DNA from: Minisyncoccia bacterium
Lineage (GTDB): Bacteria > Patescibacteriota > Minisyncoccia > Phycocordibacterales > JAACPR01
DNA length: 64,000 nt
Assembly: GCA_041740795.1 (NCBI GenBank)
Contig: JBGSLH010000008.1
Coordinates: 15,860 to 79,859, forward strand
Direction of reading: 5' to 3'
Made by a program: the position numbers and the translations under genes. The notes under the pieces were generated by a model. It saw only the letters and a list, made by a program, of their open reading frames with translations, ran no database searches and was not told the origin of the DNA. Below are positions 17,484-34,514 of the stretch, one piece after another. Positions within the stretch are counted from its first letter, which is position 1; each line of letters begins with the position of its first letter.

Positions 17484-17554
17484 TGCCCGATCGTCTAATG
17501 GTAGGACTGCGGTTTTTGGTACCGTCTATCGAGGTTCGAGTCCTTGTCGGGCAG
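17484..17554 (+). tRNA. tRNA-Gln (anticodon TTG)
   Basis: Acceptor TGCCCGA/TCGGGCA, anticodon stem GCGGT/ACCGT with loop TTTTGGT (UUG), T-arm CGAGG-TTCGAGT-CCTTG, discriminator G. Close resemblance to enterobacterial tRNA-Gln. Confidence 0.7.
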
Positions 17555-17674
17555 CTATTGACAGCTAGCTCAAATATGTTGTGTAATTAGAGCGCTCAAG
17601 TTGCGTTGATTTTCATTATGATTTTCTGCTTCTGTGGAGGAGTTGGACATTTAGTTTAAAGTGTTAAGATTTAA

Positions 17675-18823
17675 TTGATGAATAAAACAGAAATAATTTC
17701 TAAGCATTTTTCTAACATCGAAGGAGTGTTATTTGGAAAAAAAGAAATAGGAAAAAGTTTATGGGATCTATGGTATCACCCAACTATAAGATTTTTATGG
17801 CAGCAAGATTTTGATGAAAATAATGAAGTTTGGTATAGGGAAGTAGATTTATTGCAACTGGCAAAAGATGATTTATTTTTAGATATAAGGAAAAGTATGT
17901 CTTTTGTTGTGCAACAAGAATTAACTAAAATAGACGAGCTCGATCAAGATAATTCAAAGAGCAATTACTACTCCATCTTAGTACGTATATTTGATTTGGA
18001 AGATGAAACAGATGAGAATGTATGTTTATTTCTTGATCAAATTTTTCAGAATGAATTTAAAAAAAATGAGAATGACCCACTTTTACTCTGTATTTACGGA
18101 GGATATCAGCAATGGTTGTTAAGAAGGATGGGGAAGAAAGCAAAAGCTGATCAAACAGACTTCTCAAGTGTTCCTTGGAACAGAATTATTTTACCCAAAA
18201 ATTATAAATTTGCTCTGGAATATTATGAGAAAGCACTTTCTTTCGACCCTGATAATTATGTAATTTTAGGACTTATCGGGTATGATTTAGGATTTCATTT
18301 AAACCACGAGCAACACGAAGACGCTATAAAACTTTATGATAAATCTTTAGGAATTAATCCAGAAAATAAATACATACTTTTTTACAAGGCTAAGTGGCAT
18401 AAAGAACACAATGAGAAAGAAGAAGAAATTAATTGTTACATTCGTATTTTAAAGATTGATCCTGATAATCTTGTAATCTGTAAATTGCTGGCTGAAACTC
18501 TTCTTTCAGTGAACAATAAAATAGATGCCTTCAAATATTATGAAATAATAATTTCTAATCTTGAAATCCAGAAACAATTTTTAGCGTTGCATCCTGAGAT
18601 ACTTTTAGATATTTGGCCATTATTGAAGGAGTTTAATAGGAAAGACCAATCACAAATTTATTTCGATTATTGGCTTTCTTCAAAAGGAATTGATTTGTTG
18701 TTTAATTCGACTAAATTGGCACCCTTGTATTCAAAAAATAAGATAGAGAATATTCAGAATATTATTTTAAAGTTAAATGAGCAAAAAGTAGATTTTTTAG
18801 ATTTCAAAAACAACATGTTATAA
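17675..18823 (+). CDS. TPR-repeat protein
   Basis: Repeated A..Y..AL..DP.N TPR-like units. Very AT-rich codon usage. Confidence 0.5.
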   Translation: MMNKTEIISKHFSNIEGVLFGKKEIGKSLWDLWYHPTIRFLWQQDFDENNEVWYREVDLLQLAKDDLFLDIRKSMSFVVQQELTKIDELDQDNSKSNYYSILVRIFDLEDETDENVCLFLDQIFQNEFKKNENDPLLLCIYGGYQQWLLRRMGKKAKADQTDFSSVPWNRIILPKNYKFALEYYEKALSFDPDNYVILGLIGYDLGFHLNHEQHEDAIKLYDKSLGINPENKYILFYKAKWHKEHNEKEEEINCYIRILKIDPDNLVICKLLAETLLSVNNKIDAFKYYEIIISNLEIQKQFLALHPEILLDIWPLLKEFNRKDQSQIYFDYWLSSKGIDLLFNSTKLAPLYSKNKIENIQNIILKLNEQKVDFLDFKNNML

Positions 18824-18887
18824 TGAACATTATTATGTAATTAGAATGCTCTAATTGTGTTGCTTTGTTTTAATATATAATTTATAT

Positions 18888-19139: not shown

Positions 19140-20450
19140 ATGAATGAAAAAAATAAATATTGTATATATGCACGTAAATCAATGGAAGCTGAAGAACGTC
19201 AGGCAATTTCTATTGACTCACAATTAAATGAAATGAAGAATATTGTTGAACGTGAAAGCTTATCAGTTGTGGAAATAAAATCAGAATCTCACTCTGCAAA
19301 GTATTCTGGAGCCAGACCAATCTTTGCAGAAATGATGAATGATATAGAAGAGGAAAAATACAATTCTATACTTACTTGGAATCCAGATAGATTAAGTCGT
19401 AATGCAGGCGATCTTGGTTTATTAGTCGATCTAATGGATAAGGGTAAATTATTAGAGATAAGGACTTATGGACAAGTCTTTAGTAATTCACCAAATGATA
19501 AGTTCTTATTGATGATTTTGTGCTCTCAGGCAAAGCTAGAAAATGATAATAAAGGTATAAATGTTAAAAGAGGATTAAGGACTAAGGCAGAAATGGGCCA
19601 GTGGCCGTGCTCATGTGCTCCTATAGGGTATTTAAAATCAAATAAGGTAAATGAGGGTGGAATTGTATTTGTTGATGAAAAAAGAGCTAAGATAATTAGA
19701 AAATCTTTTAGAAAAATCGCTTATGAGAATATCTCAATTTATGACTTAGTTAAGTGGCTAAAAGAAATAAACTTTATTCATCACACAGGTAAACATGTTG
19801 GTTACAGTATCACTCAAGCAATGATACATAATCATTTTTATTACGGTAGATTTGAATTCCCTAAGAAATCTGGGATTTGGTATAAAGGAGCTCATAAACC
19901 GATTATTACCAAAAAACTATTTAATGATGCACAAGAAGCAATTGCACAGTGTGAAAGAAAAAAGAAATATAGATTATCCAAGACAGCACCTTTTGCTTTT
20001 TTGAAAATGATTCGTTGTGGTAATTGTGGGTCAATTATATCTGCACAGGAGAAATATAAAATATTAAAAGGTAAAGGAGGAGAAGTTGTGTATAGGTATT
20101 ATACTTGCAGTCGTAGCAGAAATAGAGATTGTAGAGAAAGAATTATTAATGAAGAAACTCTTATGAAGGAGTTGTATAAAATTCTCGATAAGGTCGAAAT
20201 TGATTTAATAGGAATGAAAGACTTTTTAGATTCAGAGATAGAAAGATTTTATAAAATTCAATCTTTCATTGATAAAAAAGAACATAAGAAAAGGAATAAT
20301 CATAAAAAAGAATATGATTTGCGAAAGTACGCAAAAACTATTTTTCAAGAGGGTCGAATAGATGAAAAAAGGGAGATACTGAAAAATCTAAAAGGTAGAT
20401 TAATTTTAAAAGATAAGAGGGTATATTTAGACAAAGTTCCAGATATTTAG
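19140..20450 (+). CDS. large serine recombinase (resolvase/invertase N-terminal domain + recombinase domain + zinc ribbon)
   Basis: Catalytic Ser region YARKS, the ILTWNPDRLSRNAGDLG and KFLLMILCSQAKLENDNKGINVKRGLR motifs, a C-terminal CGNCGS...C..SR zinc ribbon and a coiled coil. Confidence 0.85.
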   Translation: MNEKNKYCIYARKSMEAEERQAISIDSQLNEMKNIVERESLSVVEIKSESHSAKYSGARPIFAEMMNDIEEEKYNSILTWNPDRLSRNAGDLGLLVDLMDKGKLLEIRTYGQVFSNSPNDKFLLMILCSQAKLENDNKGINVKRGLRTKAEMGQWPCSCAPIGYLKSNKVNEGGIVFVDEKRAKIIRKSFRKIAYENISIYDLVKWLKEINFIHHTGKHVGYSITQAMIHNHFYYGRFEFPKKSGIWYKGAHKPIITKKLFNDAQEAIAQCERKKKYRLSKTAPFAFLKMIRCGNCGSIISAQEKYKILKGKGGEVVYRYYTCSRSRNRDCRERIINEETLMKELYKILDKVEIDLIGMKDFLDSEIERFYKIQSFIDKKEHKKRNNHKKEYDLRKYAKTIFQEGRIDEKREILKNLKGRLILKDKRVYLDKVPDI

Positions 20451-20493
20451 ACTGTAGATTGTGTTGTAGTATAAAACAACAAATAGTGTTAGG

Positions 20494-20709
20494 ATGAGTA
20501 TTATGAAAGAAGATACTAGAAAACTTGGTGATAATCTTAAAACAATTAGGATTAAAAAGAATATTACTCAAATTGAGATAGCTAAGAAATTAGGGAAAGA
20601 TCGTTCTTTTGTTAGTAATATCGAAAACGCAAAAACCAACCCAACTCTTTCAACTATTACTAATCTTGCTAAGGTTTTAGGTGTTTCAGCTAATGAATTA
20701 TTAAAATAA
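20494..20709 (+). CDS. XRE/Cro-type HTH regulator
   Basis: A 71-aa HTH_3 protein. Its stop is 1 nt before the start of the 1629-aa gene. Confidence 0.7.
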   Translation: MSIMKEDTRKLGDNLKTIRIKKNITQIEIAKKLGKDRSFVSNIENAKTNPTLSTITNLAKVLGVSANELLK

Positions 20710-20710
20710 T

Positions 20711-23700
20711 ATGCAAAAAGGAATAGACAATGGTATAAAACTATTTGAATATTTAGAAAAACTATCTCTGCTTAATACTAATATAAGAAGTAATGTAAAG
20801 AATTTATCTAAGGAAGAAGAAGAATTTAATTTAGAAGATAAAAACTTTTTGCCTATATTAGATAAAGTGTTTCTGAAAAATAGAGATTTAGAATTAGAAA
20901 AACCAGAAGATTTATTTTTATCAATTGAAAGATATAAAATTGAAAAACCTCCAAAATTGCCGAAAGAACTTGAAAAATGGATTGATTTTGAATCTATCAG
21001 TTTTATTAAACCAGAACCTAGAGAATTTTTGGTTTCGGTAGAGAAATTTAGTGATAATTCAGAAAGAGAAAATGCTTTTGAATCAATTGACTTAAATTCA
21101 AAAAAAGTCGATCCGATAATTAAAGATTGGGTTACAAAAACAGATAATGACACCTATGAAATGATCATAGAGAAGCCCAATAAAGCTTATTTTAAAGATT
21201 ATCCTGAATTACATAAATTATATAAAGATTGGATTGAATTAAAATGGGAGAAATGGAAAGAAAAAAATAATGAATATTTTATATCAAATCAAGCATATGA
21301 TAGATTTTATTCTCTTAGGTCTTTCTTAAAAACCGAATCAGATAGCTATGATCTTCTGTGGGCACATGATATTTTGACTTGGAAAAAAAACAGTAAAGAG
21401 GTTTATCATCCTACTATATTTACCCCTGTTGTTTTGGAGTTTGATCCTGATAGAAATATAATATCAATAAAAACAGAACAAAATTCAAAGACATTTTTTG
21501 ATGTTTCTTTTGTAAGAGAATCTATGGATGAAAATAGTACAAATCTAGCAGATATTGATTCTTTAGCTGAAAGAATCAATAAGAAAATTATTGAGGGAGA
21601 TTTTAATGTTTGGGATTATAAGATGATACATAAATACCTACAACAATTAGTTCATTATATATCCCCAGATGGTGAGTCTAGATATAAGGATAGAGGTTTA
21701 GATATACAGGTAACTGCACACCCGATTTCATTCAATAGTCATCATTTATTTTTACTGAAAAAAAGCGGAAAAAGTTGGGCAGATTATGCAAAAAAAATAC
21801 AAGAAGATATCGCTAAGAATAAAAAATTGACTCCCTTTTTAGAGGATCTAATTTTTGATGATGAGAAAAAAATAGACGAAACAGATAAAGAAGTCGAAAA
21901 AAACGATTCTGGTTCAGATGAAATAACAGATGGAGAACTTTATTTTCCTTTACCATATAATGATGAACAAAAAAGAATTGCAAATCAAATTGAATCAAAT
22001 TATGGTTCAGTTGTACAAGGTCCTCCTGGAACTGGAAAAACTCATACAATTGCAAACTTGATATCAAGATTTCTTGCATTAGGTAAAACTGTATTAGTTA
22101 CATCTCAAACAGGACAAGCTCTCTCTGTTTTGAAAAATAAGATCCCAAGTGAAATAAGAAGCATGGTTGTTTCTCAAGTCGAGTCTGATTCTAGAAATAA
22201 TGACTTGCAATCTTCTGTATCAGAAATAAATACAATGTTGTCAGACAATATTAGATTTACTGATGATAAAAGAGAAAAAGTAGAAAAAGATGTTCAGATC
22301 GTGAGAGAAAAAATTGCTCAAAAAAATAATGAATTTGAAAAAAAATCTTTATTAGATTCGAGAGAAGAAAAAACGATTGAATCTGAAAAGTTTTCTCCTA
22401 TTACTGCTGCAAAATATGTAACCTCATTTATTAATAATGATAAATTTAAAATCTTAGATGAAATAAATCACAATAGGGAATTACCAGTCTCTCAGTTACA
22501 GATTGATAATTACATATCAATATTAAGAAATTCAGATAATGAAATTTGGGATTTTGTAAAATTGGATACAATCCCTACGTTAGAACATCTTCCAAGAATT
22601 GAAACTTTAGAGAGGTTGTTTGAACTGAAGAATGATTTAGATAAGGCAGAAATTAAATTATTTAAAGAATATGTGCCAGATATAGAAGAATTAGAAAAAC
22701 TTAATGACGTTGAGCAGTATATAGAGGAATATAATTTAAATCTAGAAAAAAGTAAATCGTTTAAAGATTTTTTGAAAGAGACAGAGTTCTTTAAAAGAAA
22801 TGAAATTACAGAAGATGAAATTTTTGATAAAAAAAAAGAAGATATTATTTTTGAGATTCATGATTTATTAAAAAAAACAAAAGAGACATTGATGTCATTT
22901 GGCGAGGAATATGAAAAAGAGCTTTTTAATATTATAAAAAGTGATGGACAAAGAAGAAAATGGGAAACTGCCATATCTAAAATAAAAGAAATGCTTAGTA
23001 TGTACGAGGAATTTGATAGTCTTGTGTTAGGTAAAAAGATAGAGGTTTCTAAAGACTATAATGTTAATTTTGTTTTAACTTTAGATATTATTTCAAAACT
23101 ATCTGAACAAGCAGTAAATAATGGAGATAGAGTAAAAAAGGGCATAGGATTATTATTTGATCAGGGTGCAAGAAAAATTATTAAAAATATAAAGATTAAT
23201 AATAAAGAAATAAATACCTATGATGATATGCTGGTATTGAATGCATATTTTTCAAAAATTAAGATAGAAGACGATTTAAGAAATATTTGGGAACAGACTT
23301 TTCAGGTAATGGTTAACAAGAAGACTTTTTCTGATCCATTTAATGTTGTTGATTTTGAAAGTTCTCTGTCTTCTATTGATAGAATTGTTTCTTTTGAAAA
23401 TTTCAATTCCAAACTAAAAAAAGATTTAGAGAATCTCAGCTTATTCGAAGATATTAATATATCTAGCTTACATTTTGTAGAGGAAGCAATTAATATTTTT
23501 AGTAATTTTATATCAGTATTCAGAACTGAAGAATATAGTAATCTTATTGACAGTGTTGCTGAAGATTTAAAAAGAGACAATTCACATCAAAAAACACTGT
23601 TACTTTCAAAGCAAATAAAAGTAATGGATATTGAAAATATAAGGCCTTTAAAAGAGGAATTAAAGGATTTAAACAAGAGAAAAGAATTATCAGTAGAATA

Positions 23701-25600
23701 TTCAAAACTATATGAAGATGTGTTTTCTACTGAAATGAAAAAAATTAAATCTAATAAAAATAATCATAGAGATGTAATATTGTATATTCAAAATATTGAA
23801 GAGGGTAATGCTGAAGATATAAAAAAGTTCTATAAAACAATTCCAGATCTTATTGATAAGCAAAACAAATCTGTAGAAATAAAGTTGATAGAAGATTCTT
23901 TGAAAAATGATATCCCTAAAACCATAGATGAAATTAAAACTTCAATAAAAAAAGATATATTAATTAACTTTGATATAAAAGAAAGTTGGAAGTGTGGAAG
24001 ATTAATCAGTTGGCTTGATGAATTACATTCTGGAAACTCTGTTACTCAAATTAGTAAGGAATTATATATACTAAAAAATCAGGAGAGAGATTTAGTAAAA
24101 AAGTTAGTCGAAGTTTCCTCTTGGATACATCTTAAGAAAAGAGTTACTAAAAAACAGAAGGAGGCTTTGGCATCATTCGCGCTGAGTATGAAAAAATATG
24201 GTAAAGGTATGGGTAAATATGCTTCAAAACACCTTAAGGATGCTAAGGATGCTCTTGAAATAGGAAAAGACGCTGTCCCTGTTTGGATTATGCCAATTAA
24301 CACAATTCATCAGCTATTTCCGAATCCTGAATCTGGAATGTTTGATATTGTTATTTTTGATGAGGCTAGTCAGGTAGATACGAGAGGTTTAAATATCGCA
24401 TACATAGGTGAAAAACTTCTTGTAGTTGGAGATGATGAGCAGGTTAGTCCAACGTCTTTTACAACACAAAGTAAGGTTACAGATTTGATAACACGATACA
24501 TATCTGACGTACCAAATAGCCATCATTTCTCTAATACCTCTAGTCTTTTTGATATTTCTAAAATAAAAATGACTGACATTATAACTCTGACAGAGCACTT
24601 TAGATCTATAGAAGAAATAATTGGTTTTAGTAATGCATTATCCTATAACGGTAAATTGAAAGTCTTAAGAGATCAGCTTCCTGAATATAGATTAGACCCT
24701 GTCTTAGAGCCTATTTTTGTAGATAATGGCTTTGAAGAAACTAATGCTCAGGTCAATAAACCAGAAGCTGAAGCAATAGTAAGTAAATTAAAGGAAATGC
24801 TTCAGGATGAGAAATATAATGAAACAGATGAAGATGGTAAAACAAGACCAATGACTTTCGGTGTTATTTCTTTGCTTGGTAAAGAACAATCCAAACTTAT
24901 AATGAAATTAATTAGTGAGAATATCTCCTCTAAAGAAATTGAAAAGAGAGAAATTAATTGTGGAGACCCTTACGTATTTCAAGGGGATGAAAGAGATATT
25001 ATATTGATATCAATGGTTAAGGCGCCATCATTGAGTGATTCAAGTAAAAATATTTCTCCTTATACTGTATCTAAAAAAGAATATAAGCAAAGAGTTAACG
25101 TGGCCATGTCTAGAGCAAAAAATAAAATGGTTCTTTTTCACTCAATACCAAAAGATAAGTTATCTAACCCAGATGATTTAAGAAAGCAAATTTTAGATTG
25201 GTTTTATAATCATAAAACCGAAGAGAGAAAAGCAGGACTTCAAATGATTAGAGAAGAAGTTGAAAGGGGTAGGGCATCAGAATTTGAATACGATGTTGCA
25301 GAAATAATAATCAATAAAGGATATAAAGTAATCCCTCAGTATGAGGTTGCAGGATATAGAATAGATTTAGTTGTTCAAGGAGAAAAATCAAAACTTGCTG
25401 TAGAATGTGATGGAGATAAATATCATAATCAGTTTGATAAATGGCACGAGGATATGGAAAGGCAACAAATTTTAGAAAGATCGGGCTGGACATTTTGGAG
25501 ATTGTCTGGAAGTTCTTTCTATAAACATAAAGAGTTGGCTCTAGATAGTTTGTGGAAAAAGTTGGATGAAATGAACATTAATCCGTCGTTAGGTAATTAA
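20711..25600 (+). CDS. giant SF1 (Upf1/DNA2-like) helicase with C-terminal DUF559/Vsr-like endonuclease domain (Hhe-like architecture)
   Basis: Walker A VVQGPPGTGKTH. A long coiled-coil insertion. Helicase motifs IVIFDEASQV, LLVVGDDEQVSP and FQGDERDIILISMV. The C-terminus GYRIDLVV...LAVECDGDKYH is a DUF559 (restriction-endonuclease-like) signature. The ~400-aa N-terminal region is unassigned. Confidence 0.75.
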   Translation: MQKGIDNGIKLFEYLEKLSLLNTNIRSNVKNLSKEEEEFNLEDKNFLPILDKVFLKNRDLELEKPEDLFLSIERYKIEKPPKLPKELEKWIDFESISFIKPEPREFLVSVEKFSDNSERENAFESIDLNSKKVDPIIKDWVTKTDNDTYEMIIEKPNKAYFKDYPELHKLYKDWIELKWEKWKEKNNEYFISNQAYDRFYSLRSFLKTESDSYDLLWAHDILTWKKNSKEVYHPTIFTPVVLEFDPDRNIISIKTEQNSKTFFDVSFVRESMDENSTNLADIDSLAERINKKIIEGDFNVWDYKMIHKYLQQLVHYISPDGESRYKDRGLDIQVTAHPISFNSHHLFLLKKSGKSWADYAKKIQEDIAKNKKLTPFLEDLIFDDEKKIDETDKEVEKNDSGSDEITDGELYFPLPYNDEQKRIANQIESNYGSVVQGPPGTGKTHTIANLISRFLALGKTVLVTSQTGQALSVLKNKIPSEIRSMVVSQVESDSRNNDLQSSVSEINTMLSDNIRFTDDKREKVEKDVQIVREKIAQKNNEFEKKSLLDSREEKTIESEKFSPITAAKYVTSFINNDKFKILDEINHNRELPVSQLQIDNYISILRNSDNEIWDFVKLDTIPTLEHLPRIETLERLFELKNDLDKAEIKLFKEYVPDIEELEKLNDVEQYIEEYNLNLEKSKSFKDFLKETEFFKRNEITEDEIFDKKKEDIIFEIHDLLKKTKETLMSFGEEYEKELFNIIKSDGQRRKWETAISKIKEMLSMYEEFDSLVLGKKIEVSKDYNVNFVLTLDIISKLSEQAVNNGDRVKKGIGLLFDQGARKIIKNIKINNKEINTYDDMLVLNAYFSKIKIEDDLRNIWEQTFQVMVNKKTFSDPFNVVDFESSLSSIDRIVSFENFNSKLKKDLENLSLFEDINISSLHFVEEAINIFSNFISVFRTEEYSNLIDSVAEDLKRDNSHQKTLLLSKQIKVMDIENIRPLKEELKDLNKRKELSVEYSKLYEDVFSTEMKKIKSNKNNHRDVILYIQNIEEGNAEDIKKFYKTIPDLIDKQNKSVEIKLIEDSLKNDIPKTIDEIKTSIKKDILINFDIKESWKCGRLISWLDELHSGNSVTQISKELYILKNQERDLVKKLVEVSSWIHLKKRVTKKQKEALASFALSMKKYGKGMGKYASKHLKDAKDALEIGKDAVPVWIMPINTIHQLFPNPESGMFDIVIFDEASQVDTRGLNIAYIGEKLLVVGDDEQVSPTSFTTQSKVTDLITRYISDVPNSHHFSNTSSLFDISKIKMTDIITLTEHFRSIEEIIGFSNALSYNGKLKVLRDQLPEYRLDPVLEPIFVDNGFEETNAQVNKPEAEAIVSKLKEMLQDEKYNETDEDGKTRPMTFGVISLLGKEQSKLIMKLISENISSKEIEKREINCGDPYVFQGDERDIILISMVKAPSLSDSSKNISPYTVSKKEYKQRVNVAMSRAKNKMVLFHSIPKDKLSNPDDLRKQILDWFYNHKTEERKAGLQMIREEVERGRASEFEYDVAEIIINKGYKVIPQYEVAGYRIDLVVQGEKSKLAVECDGDKYHNQFDKWHEDMERQQILERSGWTFWRLSGSSFYKHKELALDSLWKKLDEMNINPSLGN

Positions 25601-25609
25601 TATTAAAAC

Positions 25610-26542
25610 ATGTCTTTTTTAAATAAATTAATAAAAATATTAGAACAAAATAATAAAAAAAGTGTTTTAAAAACGAAAACACCTGAAAACCATTCTGGCG
25701 ATATAGGGGTTTTCACTGCTGATAATGATAAAGATTTTAAATTACTACTATCTTTGTATAAGAAAAATAAAGAAGATGAAATTGATATAAAGTTTGTTGT
25801 TAAAACAGAAAGTCCACAAGCGACGGAACACATCTGTCCATATTGTAAGACCGTCCATGAATTTAAGGCTAGTCGAGCAAGAAAATGTCCAAACTGCTCT
25901 AATAAAATGGTTGTTAGACAAGGACTTTTTGTTACAGAAGATCAAGCTGAAAATATAGAAAAAAAGATTAGTGAATTTTATAATAAACAAGGGATTATTA
26001 GTCAGGTAGGATTTTCATTAGAATCCGCACAAGACCATAAGATTAATAAAGATAAGATTTATTACTACCGTTCCTTAGGTGAATCTTTTAGGTTTATGGC
26101 ACAGATAGAAAATAAAAAAGATGAAAAAGGATTTTCTTTTTGGGATAAAGCTTGGGGTTATTATAATAATGCAAGACTTCAAGAGATGAAAACACTAAGA
26201 AAAGACAGAATGGAATTCAGTTCCTTGCCTGATATTTTTTGGGATATGTCTAAAATGTTATTAGACCAAGGTAATCATGAAGATAGTGAAAAATATAAAA
26301 AACAAGCCCTCACACAAGCATGTATGACTATCGGTGAATCAATAAGATTAGGGGCTGAATTATATTTTATTACAGATATATATGAATTCTCAAAAAAAAT
26401 AATAAATGATTTATCTATTGATGAAGAAGAATTTTTGAATATAGCTGAAAAAGCTTCAGAGAGCATGAGATTAAGTGGTTCTGGTCTTTCAAAATATAAT
26501 AAAAAAATCAAAGAATTAAGCGAATATGAGGTTATTCAATAA
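25610..26542 (+). CDS. hypothetical protein with Cys4 zinc ribbon
   Basis: CPYCKT...CPNCSN. Starts 10 nt after the helicase gene. Its 3' end overlaps the recombinase gene on the opposite strand. Confidence 0.45.
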   Translation: MSFLNKLIKILEQNNKKSVLKTKTPENHSGDIGVFTADNDKDFKLLLSLYKKNKEDEIDIKFVVKTESPQATEHICPYCKTVHEFKASRARKCPNCSNKMVVRQGLFVTEDQAENIEKKISEFYNKQGIISQVGFSLESAQDHKINKDKIYYYRSLGESFRFMAQIENKKDEKGFSFWDKAWGYYNNARLQEMKTLRKDRMEFSSLPDIFWDMSKMLLDQGNHEDSEKYKKQALTQACMTIGESIRLGAELYFITDIYEFSKKIINDLSIDEEEFLNIAEKASESMRLSGSGLSKYNKKIKELSEYEVIQ

Positions 26543-27851
26543 TTATTTCTTTGTATTTTAAAATAATCCTGCCATTTAAATATTCAAGTAACTTTCTTTT
26601 TTCTTCTATTTCGCCCTCTTTCAAAATAAACTTAGCATAATCCCTAATATCAACATCTTGAACTTCAATTTCTTGAGTTAATCCCAATAGAGATTGATTA
26701 AATTTCTTTATTCTTTCAACTTCTGATTCTATCTTGCTTTTCATTCCAATTTCATCAATATTGATTTTATCTAAGAGCTTTTCAAATTGTTTGATTAATT
26801 CAACTTCATTGATGTATCCACATTTGCAATTTTTATCTCTTACTTTGGAACATCCGTAATAAATGTGTTTATTAACTGAACCATTTGCAAGTTTCTTAAA
26901 TTTTTCATCGGCAGATATTCCTGAGCCACACAACCCACATGTCATCATTTTGGTAAAGGCAAACTCTTTTGATTCTTGAGTTCGTATTGAGTGACTTTTT
27001 ATCTGTTCCTGAACTTGATTAAATAACTCTTGGGTGATTAAGGGTTCATGTTTTCCTTTGTAGAAGTTTCCACTTTTCTTGGGATATTCAAATACTCCAT
27101 AATAGAAAGGGTTTTGAAGTAGTAGATAGATATTCCCAAGGGCTAATCCTTTATTTCCTTTTGCTGTTTTAAAGTTGAGGTCAAATTTAAGCCAATGGTA
27201 TATTTTTCTTCCTGACCATTTTTCATATGCTACTTTTTCAAACATTTGTTTTACGATATGTGCTCGTTCAGGATCTAAAATAACTTCACACTTTCTATCC
27301 ATTCGTTTTTCATTTAAGTATCCAACTAGGGCAGGGCCAGGCCGTAATCCCATTTCACATCTTGTTCTTAATCCACGTTTTACATTGATACTTTTATTAT
27401 CGTTCTCAAGTTTTGCTTGAGAACAGAGAATCATTAAAAGGAACTTTTCGTTAGGGGAGTTTTGAAATGATTGTCCATATGTTTTTATTTGAATTAATTT
27501 TTTCTCGTCCATTAGGTCGACAACTGAACCAAGGTCACCAGCATTTCTCGATAATCTATCTGGTGCCCAAGTAAGTATCCCATTATATCTATCTCTCCGT
27601 ATGTCTTCTAAAAGTTCTCTAAATACTGGTCGTCCACCTGATTCCTTTGCTGAATGTGATTCTCTTCGAATATCTACAATTTCAAGACCGTCACGCTCTG
27701 CGATTGATAACATCTCCTTAACCTGTGATTCAATTGATAATGCTTGTTTTTCATCGGATTCGGTTGATTTTCTGGCGTAGAGGACATACCTAACCTTTAT
27801 CTGTGGTATCTCTGTCTTCACTCCTAAATTATTTGTATATTGTATTTCCAT
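26532..27851 (-). CDS. large serine recombinase, paralog of 19140..20450
   Basis: It shares long identical peptide blocks with the first recombinase (LTWAPDRLSRNAGDLG; KFLLMILCSQAKLENDNKSINVKRGLRT). Nucleotide identity in these blocks is only ~75 percent. Confidence 0.85.
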   Translation of the reverse strand: MEIQYTNNLGVKTEIPQIKVRYVLYARKSTESDEKQALSIESQVKEMLSIAERDGLEIVDIRRESHSAKESGGRPVFRELLEDIRRDRYNGILTWAPDRLSRNAGDLGSVVDLMDEKKLIQIKTYGQSFQNSPNEKFLLMILCSQAKLENDNKSINVKRGLRTRCEMGLRPGPALVGYLNEKRMDRKCEVILDPERAHIVKQMFEKVAYEKWSGRKIYHWLKFDLNFKTAKGNKGLALGNIYLLLQNPFYYGVFEYPKKSGNFYKGKHEPLITQELFNQVQEQIKSHSIRTQESKEFAFTKMMTCGLCGSGISADEKFKKLANGSVNKHIYYGCSKVRDKNCKCGYINEVELIKQFEKLLDKINIDEIGMKSKIESEVERIKKFNQSLLGLTQEIEVQDVDIRDYAKFILKEGEIEEKRKLLEYLNGRIILKYKEIIIE

Positions 27852-27965: not shown

Positions 27966-28838
27966 ATGAATAATCTAGTAAAAAGAGTTCAAGATACGTA
28001 TCTAAAATCTCCAATCTCTTTTCAAATTATTGGGATAACAACCTTATTTTTAGTCATCGTTTTTCCAATTTATGGGATCTATAATGAAATAAAACCAAGC
28101 GATACAGAATACTCAGAGGATAGGGGTTCAGATCACGAAGACTGTAATGTTCAAGGGATTGAACTTAGAGGTGAATTATTTACATATGTTCCAAGAGACG
28201 ATGAGGGTGTCAAAGAATATGGACTTGAAGATTCGTCTGAGAGTGAAGATGTTATGTATTATCTCAAAAATGCAGAGAATGAAGATGACATCAAAGGTGT
28301 ACTCATCGAAGTTGATTCATATGGAGGATCACCAGCTGCTGCAGAAGAAATTTCAAACACAATAAAATCAATGAACAAGCCTGTAGTAGTATTTATTCGA
28401 GAAGCAGGGCTATCTGCATCATACTATGCAATTTCTCCAGCTGATTATATTTTTGCCCTCAAAAACTCTAGTATTGGAAGTATTGGTGTAACTCAATCGT
28501 ATTTAGATAATATTTCAAAGAATCAAAAAGAAGGAAATTCCTTTGTTCAATTAAGTGTGGGTAAATTTAAGGATTCAGGAAATCCAGATAAGTCACTTAA
28601 CCAAGAGGAGCGAGCTTTATTTATGAGAGATCTTAATATTATTCATGAAAACTTTATACAGGCTATTTCTGAAAATAGGAATATTCAAATTGATAAGATA
28701 AGAGATATAGCTGACGGATCTTCAGTACTAGGAGAGAAAGCAAAAGAACTCGGACTTATTGATGATATTGGGGGTTATGTTGAATCTCAGAAATACATTG
28801 AGAATTTAATAGATGAAGAAGTGTCTGTTTGCTGGTAG
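27966..28838 (+). CDS. signal peptide peptidase SppA (S49), membrane anchored
   Basis: N-terminal TM. VDSYGGSPAAAEEI and GLSASYYAISPAD match the S49 catalytic regions. Confidence 0.7.
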   Translation: MNNLVKRVQDTYLKSPISFQIIGITTLFLVIVFPIYGIYNEIKPSDTEYSEDRGSDHEDCNVQGIELRGELFTYVPRDDEGVKEYGLEDSSESEDVMYYLKNAENEDDIKGVLIEVDSYGGSPAAAEEISNTIKSMNKPVVVFIREAGLSASYYAISPADYIFALKNSSIGSIGVTQSYLDNISKNQKEGNSFVQLSVGKFKDSGNPDKSLNQEERALFMRDLNIIHENFIQAISENRNIQIDKIRDIADGSSVLGEKAKELGLIDDIGGYVESQKYIENLIDEEVSVCW

Positions 28839-29320: not shown

Positions 29321-29575
29321 TCTAAATTTAAATTTGAATAAACTTACAAATAAAAAAGTTAAATTAACATATCTATGTAAAAAGTCTTCAGAAGAAAGTA
29401 CTTTGAGATTAGATAAAGCATTTGATATCTTATTTGAGTATGTTTTCGAGAAGATTGATGATTCAAAAAATACTAAATCACGGTAAACTGATTGCTTAGC
29501 AAATCCCTGATTTGCGATATAATGCAATGAGATAGTATATCTTTCGATATATTATAGAAGAATACAATTCAAAAA

Positions 29576-29676
29576 GGCCTATCAAGCATAAAGAACCCGT
29601 CATGGGGTTTTGCTTGATAGGCCGCATCAGGAAACTGGTGTGAAGGATTTCGATCCTTACCCGTGGCGGGCTTTTT
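29576..29676 (+). other. structured intergenic element (13-bp perfect stem enclosing an inner hairpin, a tRNA T-arm-like hairpin, terminator-like stem + T-run)
   Basis: ggcctatcaagca...tgcttgataggcc (13/13). aaggatttcgatcctt palindrome. cccgtggcggg followed by cttttt. Confidence 0.35.
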
Positions 29677-29712: not shown

Positions 29713-30171
29713 ATGGAAAATTTAAATACAAAAGATACTAAAAACTGTTATCAGTGCCTTTCAGAAATGCCAAAACGAGCACGAAAATGTGCAAAATGTG
29801 GAAGTAAGCAACCAAGTCAAATACTCAAGGTTGCAGCAATAATTATCGGACTTATCGTTCTTTGGACAATGATTACATCTTCATTTGAAGACAGTGCTCC
29901 AGTTGTAACAGAAACATATAATCCGCCGGTTCCTGTTCAACAATCAAGTTTTGAACTTGGGAAGTATAAAGTTGAATCAGAAGAGTTTGCATATATTAAT
30001 CCTAAAGAATTAAATCTTTGGAAGTCATATAGTGATAGAACAAAAGTTGGAACAGTATCTGAAGGGAGTGTTATTGAAGTGATTGAACACGATTCTAAAA
30101 ATGACTACTGTAAAATCAAGACAGACAAGAGTACAGGTTGGGTAGCATGTGGATGGCTAGTAAAACAATAA
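29713..30171 (+). CDS. zinc-ribbon / TM / SH3b-like domain protein
   Basis: N-terminal CYQC...CAKCG ribbon, one TM, and a C-terminal GWVACGWL typical of bacterial SH3-like domains. Confidence 0.4.
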   Translation: MENLNTKDTKNCYQCLSEMPKRARKCAKCGSKQPSQILKVAAIIIGLIVLWTMITSSFEDSAPVVTETYNPPVPVQQSSFELGKYKVESEEFAYINPKELNLWKSYSDRTKVGTVSEGSVIEVIEHDSKNDYCKIKTDKSTGWVACGWLVKQ

Positions 30172-30633
30172 TCACTTCTTCTTAGTGTAAAAAGGTTTCC
30201 ATCTATCAAGCATTGCGCGAGCTTTTTGTTTGATTCTCTCTCTATCTTCTTTTGACTGTCCAAATTTGATTTGATTTAAATCGTTCATCATCCTGTAGTG
30301 CTCCTTAATCAATTCTCGTTCAAATACATTCACGCCTGCACCTCGATGCATAAAAGGTTTCCTGTATGCATGATGCCTATTGGATAACCAAAATTTACTC
30401 GTTCCAATGTCTCCTTTTTTAATCCCATTTAGAATATTACTTTCTGCCACGTCACTGACCAAACTACTTCCAATTTCTATTGCATCTGTTGCTTGTGTCT
30501 TAAACTTAGAATCTTCTTTCATCCAGCGATAAAAAGTTTGTCTTGATATTCCAACTTTCGTACACGCAATTTGTACAATCGGAGTTGACTCTAGTTCTCT
30601 AAGAATTTTCTTTTGTAAATTATCTTTTTTCAC
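30172..30633 (-). CDS. HTH protein resembling phage terminase small subunit
   Basis: N-terminal HTH (VGISRQTFYRWMKED) and a basic C-terminal region. Its 5' end overlaps the upstream methyltransferase gene. Confidence 0.4.
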   Translation of the reverse strand: MKKDNLQKKILRELESTPIVQIACTKVGISRQTFYRWMKEDSKFKTQATDAIEIGSSLVSDVAESNILNGIKKGDIGTSKFWLSNRHHAYRKPFMHRGAGVNVFERELIKEHYRMMNDLNQIKFGQSKEDRERIKQKARAMLDRWKPFYTKKK

Positions 30634-31909
30634 AACGATTAATCTTAGCTTTTTGACCAGTCATCTTTTCATATCTTTTAATAATGAGGTCACAGAAAAT
30701 AGGTTCAAGTTCACATCCGTATACTCGTCTTTGGAGTAATTCACCTGCAATTAATGTACTTCCTGATCCCAGAAAACTATCAAGGATTATGTCATTTGGC
30801 TTGGTGCATCTTTTCATTGCTTTTTCATGCAGTTGAGGTGGTTTTGAAGTTGCATGCTGATAGTCTTGTGCAGATAATCTTTTAGCAGTCCAAACATCTA
30901 TAAAGTCATCTACTTCATCAAGTAGATTATTACCAGTAGTCAGTTCTTTATTCATAACCTCGTTTAGATTATTGATTGTATGTGCAAGATATGGTTTTCC
31001 ACGAACACCATACGTCACAGGTTCATATACCTTGTTGAAGGCAACGGAAGGAACTGGGTTCTGATTATTCTTGAGCCACAAACATACGCGCTTGTTTGAT
31101 ATCCCAAGTAGGCGATAGAGTTCTTGCACAATTCCGATATAAATTTGATCAGACCAGTAGAACACATGAATATCTTTCTTACATACTTTTAAAGCACATT
31201 CTATACTGTCTTTAAGAAATTTATAATATTGATCAAATGTTCTCTTATCTTTCACGTCTCCACCATATGATTGTTTTCCTCCAATGCCTCCGTTGTAATC
31301 AACTTCAATATTGTAGACAGGGTCTGAATAAATCATCGATGCTTTTTCATTGCCAAATAGTTTTTTTAGAATTTCTGGGTCAGTTGAATCTCCACAGATA
31401 ATCCTGTGCTTTCCAAGAGTAATAATGTCACCCAATCGAATTTTAGGCTTTTTAATTTTTTGTAACTCTTTTTCAACATCAAAGTTATCATCGGTAACCT
31501 CTTTGTCTTGGTCCCAAAAATCTGCAATTTCAATCTCATCAAAACCAGCAAATTCTAAAGTTTTGATATCAAATGATTTGAGTAAATCAAAATCCCAATC
31601 ACCACCAAGTTTGTTGGATGCAATGAGATATTGCTCTGACTCTTTTTTAGTTAGTTTTCGATTTGGAATTCGAACATCAATTATTTCATCACCTCGACCA
31701 AGTAGGTGAAGGGCTTGTAATCTTTGGTGACCGGCCAGAATTACGCCATTAATATCAATGGCAGGTATTTCCACTAGATTGAATTTAGTGAGACTCTTTT
31801 TAATGTCAGACATTTGCTTATCTGTAATCTGTCTTGGATTTATTTTTTGAGGTGTTAAATCAGACACTTTTCTTTGAACTGTAGTCCATGTTAGTTTTTG
31901 TATATTCAT
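30620..31909 (-). CDS. ParB-like nuclease domain fused to N6-adenine/N4-cytosine DNA methyltransferase (phage/plasmid type, no cognate REase seen)
   Basis: ParBc motif ILAGHQRLQA. MTase motif IV-like SDPVY and motif I ILDSFLGSGST. Confidence 0.8.
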   Translation of the reverse strand: MNIQKLTWTTVQRKVSDLTPQKINPRQITDKQMSDIKKSLTKFNLVEIPAIDINGVILAGHQRLQALHLLGRGDEIIDVRIPNRKLTKKESEQYLIASNKLGGDWDFDLLKSFDIKTLEFAGFDEIEIADFWDQDKEVTDDNFDVEKELQKIKKPKIRLGDIITLGKHRIICGDSTDPEILKKLFGNEKASMIYSDPVYNIEVDYNGGIGGKQSYGGDVKDKRTFDQYYKFLKDSIECALKVCKKDIHVFYWSDQIYIGIVQELYRLLGISNKRVCLWLKNNQNPVPSVAFNKVYEPVTYGVRGKPYLAHTINNLNEVMNKELTTGNNLLDEVDDFIDVWTAKRLSAQDYQHATSKPPQLHEKAMKRCTKPNDIILDSFLGSGSTLIAGELLQRRVYGCELEPIFCDLIIKRYEKMTGQKAKINRCEKR

Positions 31910-32713: not shown

Positions 32714-33367
32714 ATGTATATGGAAGCAAAAAATCTGCATATAAAACAACAACTAATACTTTCAATGCTTGAATCTGGAAAAGATTTAGGAGCGATGACT
32801 CTTCGTGGTATTGCTGAAGATATTGGAGCTCCTGGGAAACCTCAAATTGCCAAACATCACTTAGATCAACTCGAAAAAAGGGGATTGATACAGATGAACC
32901 TAAAAGAGAATTTTATTAAACTTGTAAAAAAGGGATATAACAAACCTGTTGTGAGTCCTCTGTACTCTCTGCCAGTTATGGGATCTGCCAATTGCGGTTC
33001 TCCTACAATTTTTGCTGAACAGAACATTGAAAAATATTTGAAAGTTTCTTCTAGTAGATTACCAAGAAACAAAAAAAGTCTCTATGTATTAATTGCTAGT
33101 GGATCGAGTATGAACGATGTTTCTATTGATGGTAAAAATATTGAGAACGGTGATTTTGTGTTAGTAGACAGTAATTATAAAGACTACAAAGATGGAGATG
33201 TTGTTGTTGCTGTTGTGGATGGATTAGCAACAATTAAAATATATTTCAAAAGAGGTGATGAAATAATTTTAAAACCAAAATCAACAGAAGATCATCTCCC
33301 TGTTTATCTCCATGAGGATGATGAGTTTGCGTTTAATGGAAAGGTTGTAGGAGTTATTAAAAATTGA
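32714..33367 (+). CDS. LexA-like repressor (LexA-type winged HTH + S24 peptidase)
   Basis: LexA N-terminal domain pattern (LTLRGIAEDIG...HHLDQLEKRGLI). S24 Ser/Lys dyad context (IASGSSMNDVSI...ATIKIY). The stop is 1 nt before the next gene. Confidence 0.75.
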   Translation: MYMEAKNLHIKQQLILSMLESGKDLGAMTLRGIAEDIGAPGKPQIAKHHLDQLEKRGLIQMNLKENFIKLVKKGYNKPVVSPLYSLPVMGSANCGSPTIFAEQNIEKYLKVSSSRLPRNKKSLYVLIASGSSMNDVSIDGKNIENGDFVLVDSNYKDYKDGDVVVAVVDGLATIKIYFKRGDEIILKPKSTEDHLPVYLHEDDEFAFNGKVVGVIKN

Positions 33368-33368
33368 T

Positions 33369-34514
33369 ATGCCGATTACTAATGTAAAAGAAATTAAGGA
33401 TGCTCGAGGTATTGATCCAAATACAAAAGCCTTGTTATTTGCAAAAACTGCAGGTAGGTGTGAGTTGTGTAATAAATTGACCATTAAAGATGTAACAACT
33501 GGAGTGAATTTAATTTGGGGAGAAATGGCCCACATATATGCGTTTAGTGAGGGTGGTCCTCGAGCACAGGTAGATAAACTTAGGAAAAATGATATTGAGA
33601 ATTTACTTCTGGCTTGTCCTAATTGTCATGAAAAAATTGATAAAGGAGTTCAGGAAAAATATTATACAGTTAAATATCTACAAGAATCTAAAAAGAATCA
33701 TGAAGATAGAATAAAATTAGCAACAAGTTTTTCGTCAGAACAAAAAACTAAAGTATTGAAAACGGTTGCAAATATTAATAATGAAATAGTAAAACTTTCT
33801 AACTTCGATATGTTCCAGGCCTTAATGGTAGAAAAATTACTCACTTCTGAAGAAAATTGCGAAGAAATTAATTTTACACAAAATTCAGGTCTTAATAATC
33901 AGACATATTGGAAATCAAAAAAACAAGATATTGATGAAATTATAAAAAATTTTATTTCTGATTTGAAAAGAGAGAAGTTTGAACATATTTCAATTTTCGG
34001 GATTGGACCAATTCCACTTCTGATGTATTTAGGTTCAAAATTAGACAATAAGATTAATACAAAAGTATTTCAAAGACACCGTGATGGTGAGAGTTGGAGC
34101 TGGAAGAAGGGAATACCAAAAGCTGAATATAATTTTAGTGTAAAGAAAAAGGGCTCTGACAAAAATAAAGTTTCACTTCTACTGTCTCTTTCTGGAACTA
34201 TAAATCGTAACCTACTCCCAACTAATGTCAAAGAAAATTATATGTACGAATTGTCTCTTAAGGGTAGTCCTAATTATAATTTTTTGCAAACAGAAAAAGA
34301 CCTATTTCATTTTGAAAAAGATTTCACTACGGCTATAAGTAAAATAAAAAATAATCACCCTAATTTAAAAAGCATCGATGTTTTCCCGGCTGTCCCAGCA
34401 CCTGTTGCAATTATATGTGGTAGGTCCTTAAATAAAAACTCTGACCCCAAATTAAGGATTTTTAATACATCCAACAAGAAGAAGTTCGTTTATTCATTAA
34501 CAATTAATAATTAA
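33369..34514 (+). CDS. HNH endonuclease with ~270-aa C-terminal domain (Cap5-like HNH-SAVED effector architecture)
   Basis: HNH motif CELCNK...AHIYAFSEGG...NLLLACPNCHEKID within the N-terminal 95 aa. The C-terminal domain is unassigned by eye; its size and position fit SAVED. Confidence 0.55.
   Translation: MPITNVKEIKDARGIDPNTKALLFAKTAGRCELCNKLTIKDVTTGVNLIWGEMAHIYAFSEGGPRAQVDKLRKNDIENLLLACPNCHEKIDKGVQEKYYTVKYLQESKKNHEDRIKLATSFSSEQKTKVLKTVANINNEIVKLSNFDMFQALMVEKLLTSEENCEEINFTQNSGLNNQTYWKSKKQDIDEIIKNFISDLKREKFEHISIFGIGPIPLLMYLGSKLDNKINTKVFQRHRDGESWSWKKGIPKAEYNFSVKKKGSDKNKVSLLLSLSGTINRNLLPTNVKENYMYELSLKGSPNYNFLQTEKDLFHFEKDFTTAISKIKNNHPNLKSIDVFPAVPAPVAIICGRSLNKNSDPKLRIFNTSNKKKFVYSLTINN

What the first reader, a model, noticed from the sequence alone, without database searches (positions are those of the whole stretch)
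20494..26542. Hhe-like giant helicase-nuclease with dedicated HTH and zinc-ribbon partners
A 1629-aa protein combines an unassigned ~400-aa N-terminal region, an Upf1/DNA2-like SF1 helicase split by a ~650-aa coiled-coil insertion, and a C-terminal DUF559/Vsr-like endonuclease domain. This is the architecture reported for the single-gene Hhe antiphage system. Here it is flanked at 1-nt and 10-nt spacing by a Cro-like HTH and a 310-aa Cys4 zinc-ribbon protein. That suggests a three-gene variant, and the whole unit is bracketed by two recombinase genes.
Basis: partly seen in the sequence, partly recalled or inferred. Interest (0 to 1): 0.7.

Follow-up and report, generated by a model that had tools for sequence, protein, structure and literature searches.

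The report
Hhe-like helicase-nuclease on a mobile island
A giant helicase fused to a DNA-cutting domain, related to but distinct from the known anti-phage protein Hhe, sits in a defence island of a Parcubacteria-type (CPR) bacterium; its small HTH partner is kept only in its closest relatives, and the zinc-ribbon gene is an occasional passenger, not a dedicated partner.

Summary
All the described genes are present. They are a 71-aa XRE-type HTH (20494-20709), a 1629-aa protein (20711-25600) and a 310-aa Cys4 zinc-ribbon protein (25610-26542). Two 50%-identical large serine recombinases bracket them.

The 1629-aa protein has five parts:
- an unassigned N-terminal domain of about 415 aa;
- the first part of an Upf1/DNA2-like SF1 helicase;
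- an insertion of about 635 aa;
- the rest of the helicase;
- an MTES_1575/Vsr-type nuclease.

A genuine Hhe from a Klebsiella plasmid has the same domain order, but this protein is not Hhe. It has no DUF4011, it scores 135 bits against NCBIfam's Hhe cut-off of 2000, and its best named match, ProA, scores 207 against 1500. It belongs to a large unnamed sister family with its own N-terminal domain (1392 clusters at 50% identity), found across many phyla with unrelated neighbours.

The HTH is conserved at 1-4 nt spacing only in the closest sub-clade. The zinc-ribbon protein (zinc ribbon plus TPR-like solenoid) is absent from about 90 other helicase loci. It recurs beside a Cas4-like DUF2779 gene that often follows the helicase in Patescibacteria-type mobile elements.

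The island also carries a CBASS operon. The most likely role is single-gene anti-phage or anti-plasmid defence under an HTH regulator. This is a new variant of a known kind.

The parts
19140..20450 (+). Large serine recombinase REC1 (436 aa), upstream bracket
   Evidence: Resolvase, Recombinase and Zn_ribbon_recom domains. It is 50% identical to REC2.
20462..20481 (.). Candidate operator, TGTTGT-N8-ACAACA, in the 43-nt gap between REC1 and the HTH gene (inferred only)
   Evidence: Read from the sequence. L086 has a similar 7-bp-arm, N8 palindrome at the same distance from its HTH start. In AT-rich DNA this could be chance.
20494..20709 (+). XRE/Cro-type HTH protein (71 aa), probable transcriptional regulator of the operon
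   Evidence: HTH_3, 3e-17. The best PADLOC hits are HTH_VI, RM control proteins and CapH. Orthologues sit 1-4 nt upstream of the helicase in L001-4, L086 and L006 only.
20711..21955 (+). N-terminal domain of the helicase-nuclease (aa 1-415), the family signature and putative sensor or targeting domain
21956..22372 (+). First part of the SF1 helicase, with Walker A GPPGTGKT (aa 416-554)
   Evidence: AAA_11, AAA_30 and AAA_19. The motif is invariant. DNA2, IGHMBP2 and Upf1 match this stretch.
22373..24277 (+). Insertion of about 635 aa within the helicase (aa 555-1189). Helix-favouring composition; its last ~150 aa are better conserved.
   Evidence: No Pfam domain. The ProA model aligns across it in one stretch. 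Hhe has an insertion in the same place.
24278..25150 (+). Rest of the helicase core (motif II DEAS, GDDEQVSP, FQGDERD, VAMSRA; aa 1190-1480)
   Evidence: AAA_12, 6e-17. Sen1 matches residues 1207-1473. The motifs are invariant.
25283..25564 (+). Vsr-type restriction-endonuclease-fold nuclease, MTES_1575 (aa 1525-1618)
   Evidence: MTES_1575, 1.2e-31, and DUF559, 1.5e-5. D1552, E1565, D1567 and H1572 are invariant. It aligns to the Hhe nuclease.
25610..26542 (+). ZR310: Cys4 zinc ribbon (about aa 70-108) plus a TPR-like helical solenoid. A facultative accessory or passenger gene.
26532..27851 (-). Large serine recombinase REC2 (439 aa), convergent with the operon
   Evidence: Resolvase, Recombinase and Zn_ribbon_recom. 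It matches the PHROG integrase family phrog_95, 2e-62. Homologues at 58-73% identity lie beside helicase homologues in L008, L009 and L093 and beside a ZR310 homologue in L095.

Best explanation
**What it is.** The 1629-aa protein is a self-contained helicase-nuclease effector. It belongs to a large, unnamed family that is a sister of the anti-phage proteins Hhe and ProA and of the PADLOC candidate PDC-S37.

**Proposed mechanism (inferred from the family; not shown here).**
- The family-specific N-terminal domain recognises or is recruited to invading nucleic acid or a phage product.
- The Upf1/DNA2-like SF1B motor uses ATP to translocate along that nucleic acid.
- The long helical insertion acts as a regulatory or oligomerisation arm.
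- The C-terminal Vsr/MTES_1575 nuclease cuts the DNA, which aborts phage or plasmid replication.

**The neighbouring genes.**
- The 71-aa XRE-type HTH is translationally coupled 1 nt upstream. It is a lineage-specific transcriptional regulator of the operon, like the C-proteins of restriction-modification systems or CapH of CBASS. It is not a mechanistic subunit.
- The 310-aa zinc-ribbon/TPR protein is a facultative accessory or passenger gene. It travels in the same family of serine-recombinase elements of Patescibacteria.
- In related elements the slot after the helicase is usually taken by a Cas4-like/exonuclease DUF2779 protein. Here that gene is missing and ZR310 abuts the helicase directly.

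**Setting.** The cassette is cargo of a low-GC integrated island next to tRNA-Gln in a Parcubacteria-type genome. The same island carries a CBASS operon.
For: **Architecture and intact catalytic motifs:**

**Similarity to known defence proteins**
- PADLOC: PDC-S37 2e-59 and Hhe 8e-36.
- NCBIfam: ProA 4e-61 and Hhe 2e-39.
- Same domain order as an annotated Hhe, with the C-terminal halves aligning at 99.9% probability.
- A nuclease active-site mutation (E1731A) abolishes Hhe defence in E. coli (bioRxiv 10.1101/2022.06.16.496414).

**The protein acts on its own**
- In 80 species-representative genomes from many phyla, the upstream and downstream genes are unrelated to one another.
- Close relatives stand alone between housekeeping genes.

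**Mobility and patchy distribution**
- Relatives occur in 485 plasmid records.
- Close relatives lie next to IS elements, serine recombinases or Rep genes.
- Only 2 hits in 2.9 million viral contigs, and none of full length in 50,697 phage genomes.

**Defence-island context**
- GC drops from about 45% to about 30% directly after tRNA-Gln.
- A CBASS effector, cyclase and E2 lie at 33369-36124 and a type II methyltransferase at 30620-31909.

**HTH as regulator**
- It matches RM control proteins and CapH.
- It is conserved at 1-4 nt spacing in four independent loci while diverging faster than the helicase: 30-53% against 69-75% identity.

**Host:** its ClpC-like protein is closest to Parcubacteria and Patescibacteria proteins.
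Against: - No member of this particular family has been tested for phage defence in any literature I could find.
- Scores against every named defence model are far below their curated cut-offs.
- The role of the N-terminal domain is pure inference. It has no fold or sequence relative in the PDB.
- Frequent adjacency to serine recombinases, Rep, ParB-methyltransferase and DUF2779 genes in Patescibacteria also fits a function that serves the mobile element itself.
- ZR310 is linked to the helicase/DUF2779 module in 3 of 6 independent contexts. That is more than chance and could mean a functional tie that I am underrating.
Confidence: 0.6

Rival explanations
1. This is a genuine multi-gene system. 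The HTH, the helicase-nuclease and the zinc-ribbon/TPR protein (with DUF2779 in related loci) work together. ZR310 would act as an adaptor or sensor subunit that binds the helicase through its TPR-like surface.
For: - The three genes are tightly packed on one strand, with gaps of 1 and 9 nt.
- A ZR310 homologue directly follows helicase-DUF2779 in L094 with a 4-nt overlap.
- A ZR310 homologue also follows a DUF2779 remnant in L104-108.
- The ZR310 fold is a protein-interaction scaffold.
Against: - ZR310 is absent from all other helicase loci examined. These are about 90 loci, including six close-clade contexts.
- It occurs without any helicase in L005, L095/96 and L097.
- Its family has only 28 clusters, against more than 6000 helicase hits.
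- In L104-108 the helicase is gone while the ZR gene persists, although split into two ORFs.
Confidence: 0.12
2. The helicase-nuclease serves the mobile element rather than the host. It could process DNA for excision, replication or transfer of the serine-recombinase element, or act as a selfish addiction or competitor-exclusion nuclease.
For: - Helicase homologues recur beside REC2-like serine recombinases at 58-73% identity, even when the helicases themselves are only 35% identical (L008, L009, L093).
- They also lie beside Rep (REP_ORF2-G2P), rve integrase, ParB-methyltransferase and terminase-small-subunit-like genes.
- The window cassette is bracketed by two such recombinases.
Against: - Most family members across phyla have no recombinase or Rep neighbour.
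- Close relatives sit alone between housekeeping genes.
- The family is nearly absent from viral contigs and phage genomes.
- The nearest characterised relatives are host defence proteins.
- Competitor exclusion would in practice be a form of defence.
Confidence: 0.15
3. It is a housekeeping DNA-repair or RNA-surveillance helicase-nuclease of the DNA2/Upf1/Sen1 type.
For: The only solved relatives by sequence are Sen1, DNA2, IGHMBP2 and Upf1.
Against: - Those matches cover only the generic helicase lobes.
- The gene lies in a low-GC island beside tRNA-Gln, between recombinases.
- The family is patchy, is often plasmid-borne, and has different neighbours in every genome.
- The nuclease is a Vsr/restriction-endonuclease type typical of conflict systems (PMC3710099).
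Confidence: 0.05

Closest known systems
Hhe (single-gene anti-phage helicase-Vsr nuclease; NCBIfam NF042953, PADLOC Hhe; e.g. WP_031944115 of K. pneumoniae pKp848CTX)
   Same: - One giant polypeptide with the same order of parts: an N-terminal domain of about 420 aa, a Walker A lobe, a long insertion, the rest of the SF1 helicase and an MTES_1575/Vsr nuclease.
- The C-terminal ~450 aa are homologous (probability 99.9%, 31% identity).
- It acts as a stand-alone gene in most genomes.
   Different: - The N-terminal domain is not DUF4011.
- The insertion is about 635 aa, against about 850 aa in Hhe.
- There is no ~130-aa tail after the nuclease.
- The NCBIfam score is 135 bits against a cut-off of 2000.
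- The closest sub-clade has an added upstream HTH gene.
ProA (NCBIfam NF058533, 'anti-phage protein ProA')
   Same: It is the best named match. One alignment runs from just before Walker A through the insertion to the end of the nuclease: residues 378-1621 against model positions 613-1706 of 1903.
   Different: - The score is 207 bits against a cut-off of 1500.
- The first ~610 model positions (the ProA N-terminus) and the last ~200 are unmatched.
- Five other carriers of this N-terminal domain also score only about 230 bits.
- I could find no paper on ProA in the library.
PADLOC candidate PDC-S37
   Same: It is the best PADLOC hit (2e-59, 199.5 bits). The match covers helicase motif II onward and the nuclease: residues 1190-1621 against model positions 918-1341 of 1550.
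   Different: The match is partial. Most of the N-terminal domain and the insertion are not in the best-scoring stretch. It is a prediction-only candidate system, and I found no paper on it.
MTES_1575-type conflict proteins (HEPN + transglutaminase + SF1 helicase + Vsr REase + wHTH; Anantharaman et al. 2013, PMC3710099)
   Same: It has an SF1 helicase fused to the same Vsr-family nuclease domain.
   Different: It has no HEPN, transglutaminase or wHTH/DUF3320 domains.
Upf1-like SF1B helicases (Sen1, DNA2, IGHMBP2, Upf1)
   Same: The helicase core motifs match, and these are the closest solved structures by sequence.
   Different: Those proteins are eukaryotic housekeeping enzymes. They have no Vsr nuclease, no comparable N-terminal domain and no 635-aa insertion at this position.

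Membership tests
Hhe (NF042953 / PADLOC Hhe) | N-terminal DUF4011 domain (PF13195) | tested here: not met
   There is no DUF4011 hit on the whole protein at E<=0.01, or on residues 1-415 at E<=5. A genuine Hhe scores 1.6e-37. The N-terminal profile compared with the Hhe N-terminus gives probability 0.5%. A structural comparison could not be run.
Hhe (NF042953 / PADLOC Hhe) | Whole-protein score at or above the curated equivalog cut-off (2000 bits) | tested here: not met
   134.7 bits.
Hhe (NF042953 / PADLOC Hhe) | SF1 helicase (AAA_11/AAA_12) interrupted by a long insertion, followed by an MTES_1575/Vsr nuclease with a catalytic Glu | tested here: met
   E1565, in the motif VECDG, aligns with the IECDG Glu of Hhe.
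Hhe (NF042953 / PADLOC Hhe) | Works as a single gene, with no conserved partner | tested here: met
   Neighbours are heterogeneous in 80 genomes. The HTH occurs only in the closest sub-clade.
Hhe (NF042953 / PADLOC Hhe) | Protects against phage; abolished by a nuclease mutation | not testable with these tools
   This needs an experiment. It has been reported for E. coli Hhe.
ProA (NF058533) | Whole-protein score at or above the curated equivalog cut-off (1500 bits) | tested here: not met
   207 bits. Only model positions 613-1706 of 1903 are matched.
PADLOC PDC-S37 | Full-length match to the 1550-position model | tested here: inconclusive
   It is the best PADLOC hit (199.5 bits, 2 stretches). 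The best stretch covers only model positions 918-1341. No cut-off is given.
Upf1-like SF1B helicases | Conserved helicase motifs I, II, III and V/VI, and sequence similarity to Upf1, DNA2, Sen1 and IGHMBP2 | tested here: met
   Translocation polarity and substrate were not tested.
Unnamed family defined by this N-terminal domain | N-terminal domain (aa ~1-415; conserved core ~160-415) followed by the split helicase and MTES_1575 | tested here: met
   The profile finds 1392 clusters at E<=1e-3, and the domain is always N-terminal in proteins of 1400-1950 aa. Five sampled members share the architecture. Eighteen full-length homologues align end to end.
Proposed three-gene HTH + helicase + zinc-ribbon system | Conserved co-occurrence of all three genes | tested here: not met
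   The HTH is present in 4 independent loci only. ZR310 lies next to a helicase only in the window and, separated from it by DUF2779, in L094. It occurs alone in L005, L095/96 and L097.

The most novel reading that the evidence does not exclude
In Patescibacteria, the Hhe-like helicase-nuclease may be the core of a modular, element-borne system rather than a single-gene defence. The full set would be an HTH regulator, the helicase/Vsr nuclease, a Cas4-like plus DEDD-like exonuclease (DUF2779) and a zinc-ribbon/TPR adaptor. Modules would be swapped or lost between elements. The previously undescribed N-terminal domain would be a new sensor fold that defines a defence family as large as Hhe itself.
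Probability: 0.2. Interest if true: 0.6.

Novelty: new variant of a known kind. Interest (0 to 1): 0.42.

Why it matters
- **Annotation.** Hhe-like helicase-nucleases are a superfamily with interchangeable N-terminal domains. This branch has at least 1392 clusters at 50% identity, spans many phyla and has no Pfam domain for its N-terminus. It is currently annotated only as 'AAA domain-containing protein', so defence-finding tools tuned to Hhe or ProA will miss it.
- **CPR biology.** The window is a clear case of a defence island (this gene plus CBASS) in a Parcubacteria-type CPR genome, a group thought to be poor in defence systems.
- **Experimental leads.** The recurring link with a Cas4-like DUF2779 nuclease and a zinc-ribbon/TPR protein on serine-recombinase elements gives concrete candidates for accessory factors that could be tested.

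Tried and rejected
- **Literature.** Searches for ProA, PDC-S37 and an Hhe mechanism found no primary paper on ProA or PDC-S37. The only functional statements on Hhe were those.
- **N-terminus as a divergent DUF4011.** Sequence methods rejected this.
- **Fold searches.**
  - The N-terminal model has no meaningful PDB match.
  - ZR310 has only generic TPR matches and no viral match.
  - The afdb50 library was unavailable.
- **Metagenome scan with the helicase.** It returned only 3 loci, so contexts of close relatives came from exact-protein look-ups instead.
- **Viral contig scans.** None for ZR310 and 2 for the helicase.
- **Island ends.** I looked for a direct repeat derived from tRNA-Gln and found none. 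Long repeats flanking the cassette look like AT-rich chance matches.
- **DUF2779.** There is no trace of it in the window. The 507-aa gene next to ZR310 in L095 is not DUF2779.
- **Other scans.** The promoter/terminator scan gave fewer promoter-like sites than shuffled sequence, so it is uninformative. Rfam finds no RNA element inside the cassette.
Full report

Yes. Three + strand ORFs lie at 20494-20709 (71 aa), 20711-25600 (1629 aa) and 25610-26542 (310 aa).

Pfam gives the following:
- HTH_3 (3e-17) on the small protein.
- On the giant protein: AAA_11/AAA_30/AAA_19 at residues 416-554, AAA_12 at 1278-1475, MTES_1575 (a Vsr-family restriction-endonuclease fold) at 1525-1618 (1e-31), and DUF559 (1.5e-5).

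Residues 1-415 and 555-1200 match no Pfam family even at E<=5. A profile of 18 full-length homologues hits only Sen1, DNA2, IGHMBP2 and Upf1 among solved structures, which places the motor in the Upf1-like SF1B helicases. These residues are invariant across the alignment:
- Walker A GPPGTGKT
- motif II FDEAS
- GDDEQVSP
- FQGDERD
- VAMSRA
- the nuclease residues D1552, E1565, D1567 and H1572

The insertion (residues 555-1189, about 635 aa) is rich in K/E/I/L and poor in Pro/Gly, and it is the least conserved part. I could not test whether it is a coiled coil.

The 310-aa protein has an invariant CxxC...CxxC motif. The flanking genes at 19140-20450 (+) and 26532-27851 (-) are large serine recombinases, 50% identical to each other.

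**2. Which family does the giant protein belong to?**

It has thousands of homologues, many aligning over 99-100% of its length, so the N-terminal domain and the insertion are family features. Full-length relatives occur in these groups:
- Patescibacteria
- Omnitrophota
- Planctomycetota
- Negativicutes
- Deltaproteobacteria-type lineages
- Melainabacteria
- Coxiellaceae
- a few archaea

A profile of the N-terminal 415 aa, searched against 1.84 billion representative proteins, finds 1392 clusters at E<=1e-3. The domain is always at the N-terminus of proteins of 1400-1950 aa, or of fragments. Five long members that I sampled have the same helicase and nuclease layout and no DUF4011. Some add C-terminal DUF3320, ArsR-type HTH or Mrr_N domains.

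Scores against named defence models are significant but far below membership level:

| Model | Result | Curated cut-off |
|---|---|---|
| NCBIfam ProA | 207 bits | 1500 |
| NCBIfam Hhe | 135 bits | 2000 |
| PADLOC PDC-S37 | 2e-59 | none given |
| PADLOC Hhe | 8e-36 | none given |

The sampled relatives behave the same way.

I fetched a genuine annotated Hhe (K. pneumoniae plasmid pKp848CTX, 1911 aa). Its layout is DUF4011 at 30-308, Walker A at about 430-490, AAA_11 C-part/AAA_12 at 1378-1637 and MTES_1575 at 1683-1780. This is the same order of parts, including a long insertion in the helicase. Only the C-terminal ~450 aa align between the two proteins (probability 99.9%, 31% identity). The N-terminal domains show no detectable similarity.

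The N-terminal model (pLDDT 79.8, mixed alpha/beta) has no fold match in the PDB and no sequence match.

Conclusion: the protein works like Hhe by architecture, but it is not a member of Hhe or ProA. It belongs to an unnamed sister family with its own N-terminal domain.

**3. Are the partners dedicated?**

*HTH.* An HMM built from four orthologues finds this HTH immediately upstream of the helicase, at 1-4 nt spacing, only in the window, L001-L004, L086 and L006. In those loci helicase identity is 69-75%.

No such gene was called or found upstream of the other close relatives: P0008 (69%), P0013 (65%), P0016 (62%), P0023 (56%), P0033 (55%) and P0042 (54%). Among 28 small ORFs upstream of the helicase in species-representative genomes, only two besides the window's carry HTH_3.

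Its best PADLOC matches are generic defence regulators: HTH_VI, restriction-modification control proteins and CapH. I read it as a lineage-specific transcriptional regulator. A TGTTGT-N8-ACAACA palindrome lies 13 nt upstream of its start codon. L086 has a comparable palindrome at the same distance. This is suggestive only.

*Zinc-ribbon protein (ZR310).* Its family is small, with 28 clusters. tblastn finds it in none of the roughly 90 other helicase loci. The six independent contexts I found for it are:

| Context | Arrangement |
|---|---|
| Window | directly after the helicase |
| L094 | helicase (48% identical) - DUF2779 - ZR, same strand, 4-nt overlap |
| L104-108 | serine recombinase - Rep - C-terminal 205-aa remnant of DUF2779 - ZR (split into two ORFs), helicase gone |
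| L005 | alone, between ScpAB and a tRNA synthetase |
| L095/96 | near two serine recombinases and a ParB-methyltransferase |
| L097 | among phage-like genes |

Its model (pLDDT 89.5) is a zinc ribbon followed by a TPR-like solenoid. It has no viral counterpart.

*DUF2779.* The gene that most often follows the helicase in the close clade is DUF2779, seen in L001-4, L086, L093, L094 and L102. A recent analysis describes DUF2779 as a Cas4-like nuclease fused to a second exonuclease domain (PMC13621843). It is absent from the window.

ZR310 is therefore not a dedicated partner of the helicase. It shows a looser, non-random link to the helicase/DUF2779 module. Travel on the same family of mobile elements can explain that link.

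**4. Context**

The host is a Parcubacteria/Patescibacteria-type organism, judged from the nearest relatives of its ClpC-like protein. GC falls from about 45% to about 30% directly after tRNA-Gln (17484-17555) and stays low for tens of kilobases.

Besides the cassette, the island carries:
- a CBASS operon at 33369-36124 (SAVED-endonuclease effector, CD-NTase and E2-like protein), preceded by an S24 peptidase-type protein;
- a type II methyltransferase with a gene resembling a terminase small subunit.

REC2-like recombinases at 58-73% identity sit beside helicase homologues in L008, L009 and L093, and beside a ZR310 homologue in L095. In L009 the recombinase has the same convergent position as in the window, although the helicase there is only 35% identical. 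So the cassette is cargo of a recurrent family of serine-recombinase elements.

Relatives of the helicase are common on plasmids, with 485 records. They are almost absent from viral contigs and phage genomes.

**5. Most likely mechanism**

Shown here:
- an intact ATPase/helicase and a Vsr-type nuclease in one polypeptide;
- a conserved, family-specific N-terminal domain;
- single-gene behaviour across phyla;
- a location in a mobile defence island.

Inferred:
- The N-terminal domain senses or targets invading nucleic acid.
- The SF1B motor translocates along it, and the nuclease cleaves it, which stops phage or plasmid replication.
- The HTH sets expression of the operon.

This follows what is reported for Hhe, where a nuclease active-site mutation abolishes defence. 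I put about 0.6 on this reading. The rivals are an element-serving function (0.15), a true multi-gene system that requires ZR310 (0.12) and housekeeping repair (0.05).

**6. Novelty and verdict**

"Hhe-like architecture" holds, "Hhe" as a family does not, and "dedicated HTH and zinc-ribbon partners" holds only for the HTH and only in a narrow sub-clade.

This is a new variant of a known kind: an Hhe/ProA-type helicase-nuclease with a different, undescribed N-terminal domain. It is of moderate interest, mainly for three reasons. The unnamed family is large. The setting is a CPR defence island. The DUF2779 and ZR310 genes are testable candidates for accessory factors.

Noticed in passing
window 32714-36124 (+): A CBASS operon lies in the same low-GC island. 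It comprises an S24 peptidase/LexA-like protein (32714-33367), a SAVED-endonuclease effector (33369-34514, PADLOC 4.5e-145), a CD-NTase cyclase (34518-35408, 4e-69) and an E2-like protein (35390-36124, 9e-41).
   Followed up: partly
window 29534-29658 (+): There is a full-length match to the LOOT RNA motif (Rfam RF03000, 55.5 bits against a gathering score of 46.4). It lies just upstream of a 152-aa ORF with an N-terminal zinc-ribbon-like CxxC...CxxC (29713-30171).
   Followed up: no
window 30172-31909 (-): A type II N6/N4 DNA methyltransferase (30620-31909) is paired with a 153-aa protein that weakly resembles terminase small subunits (30172-30633). A similar methyltransferase plus TerS-like pair lies near the helicase in L093, and methyltransferase genes lie near it in L102. 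This suggests a shared phage-like element backbone.
   Followed up: partly
window 17579-17612 and 18833-18866: A 34-nt direct repeat (79% identical) brackets a TPR-repeat gene (17675-18823) immediately after tRNA-Gln. It may be an old attachment-site scar. No tRNA-derived repeat marks the far end of the island.
   Followed up: partly
L009 5094-6353 (-); L008 3752-5059 (-); L093 2620-3936 (+); L095 2672-3985 (-): Serine recombinases 58-73% identical to the window's REC2 lie directly beside helicase homologues of very different identity (35-56%) and beside a ZR310 homologue. This points to one recombinase family that shuttles these cargo genes among Patescibacteria.
   Followed up: partly
L104 6373-7955 (also L105-L108): This is a decayed version of the module, seen in many samples. 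Only the C-terminal 205 aa of DUF2779 remain, the helicase is missing, and the ZR310 homologue is split into 225-aa and 101-aa ORFs. It sits next to a Rep protein and a serine recombinase.
   Followed up: yes
P0203, P0213 (relatives found): Some members of the family carry extra C-terminal domains after the nuclease: two ArsR-type HTH domains plus DUF4357, or an Mrr_N domain. DNA-binding modules therefore seem to be added in cis in some lineages, whereas this lineage has a separate HTH gene.
   Followed up: no
window 27966-28838 (+): An S49 (SppA/ClpP-like) peptidase gene lies directly after REC2. Its relation to the island is unknown.
   Followed up: no
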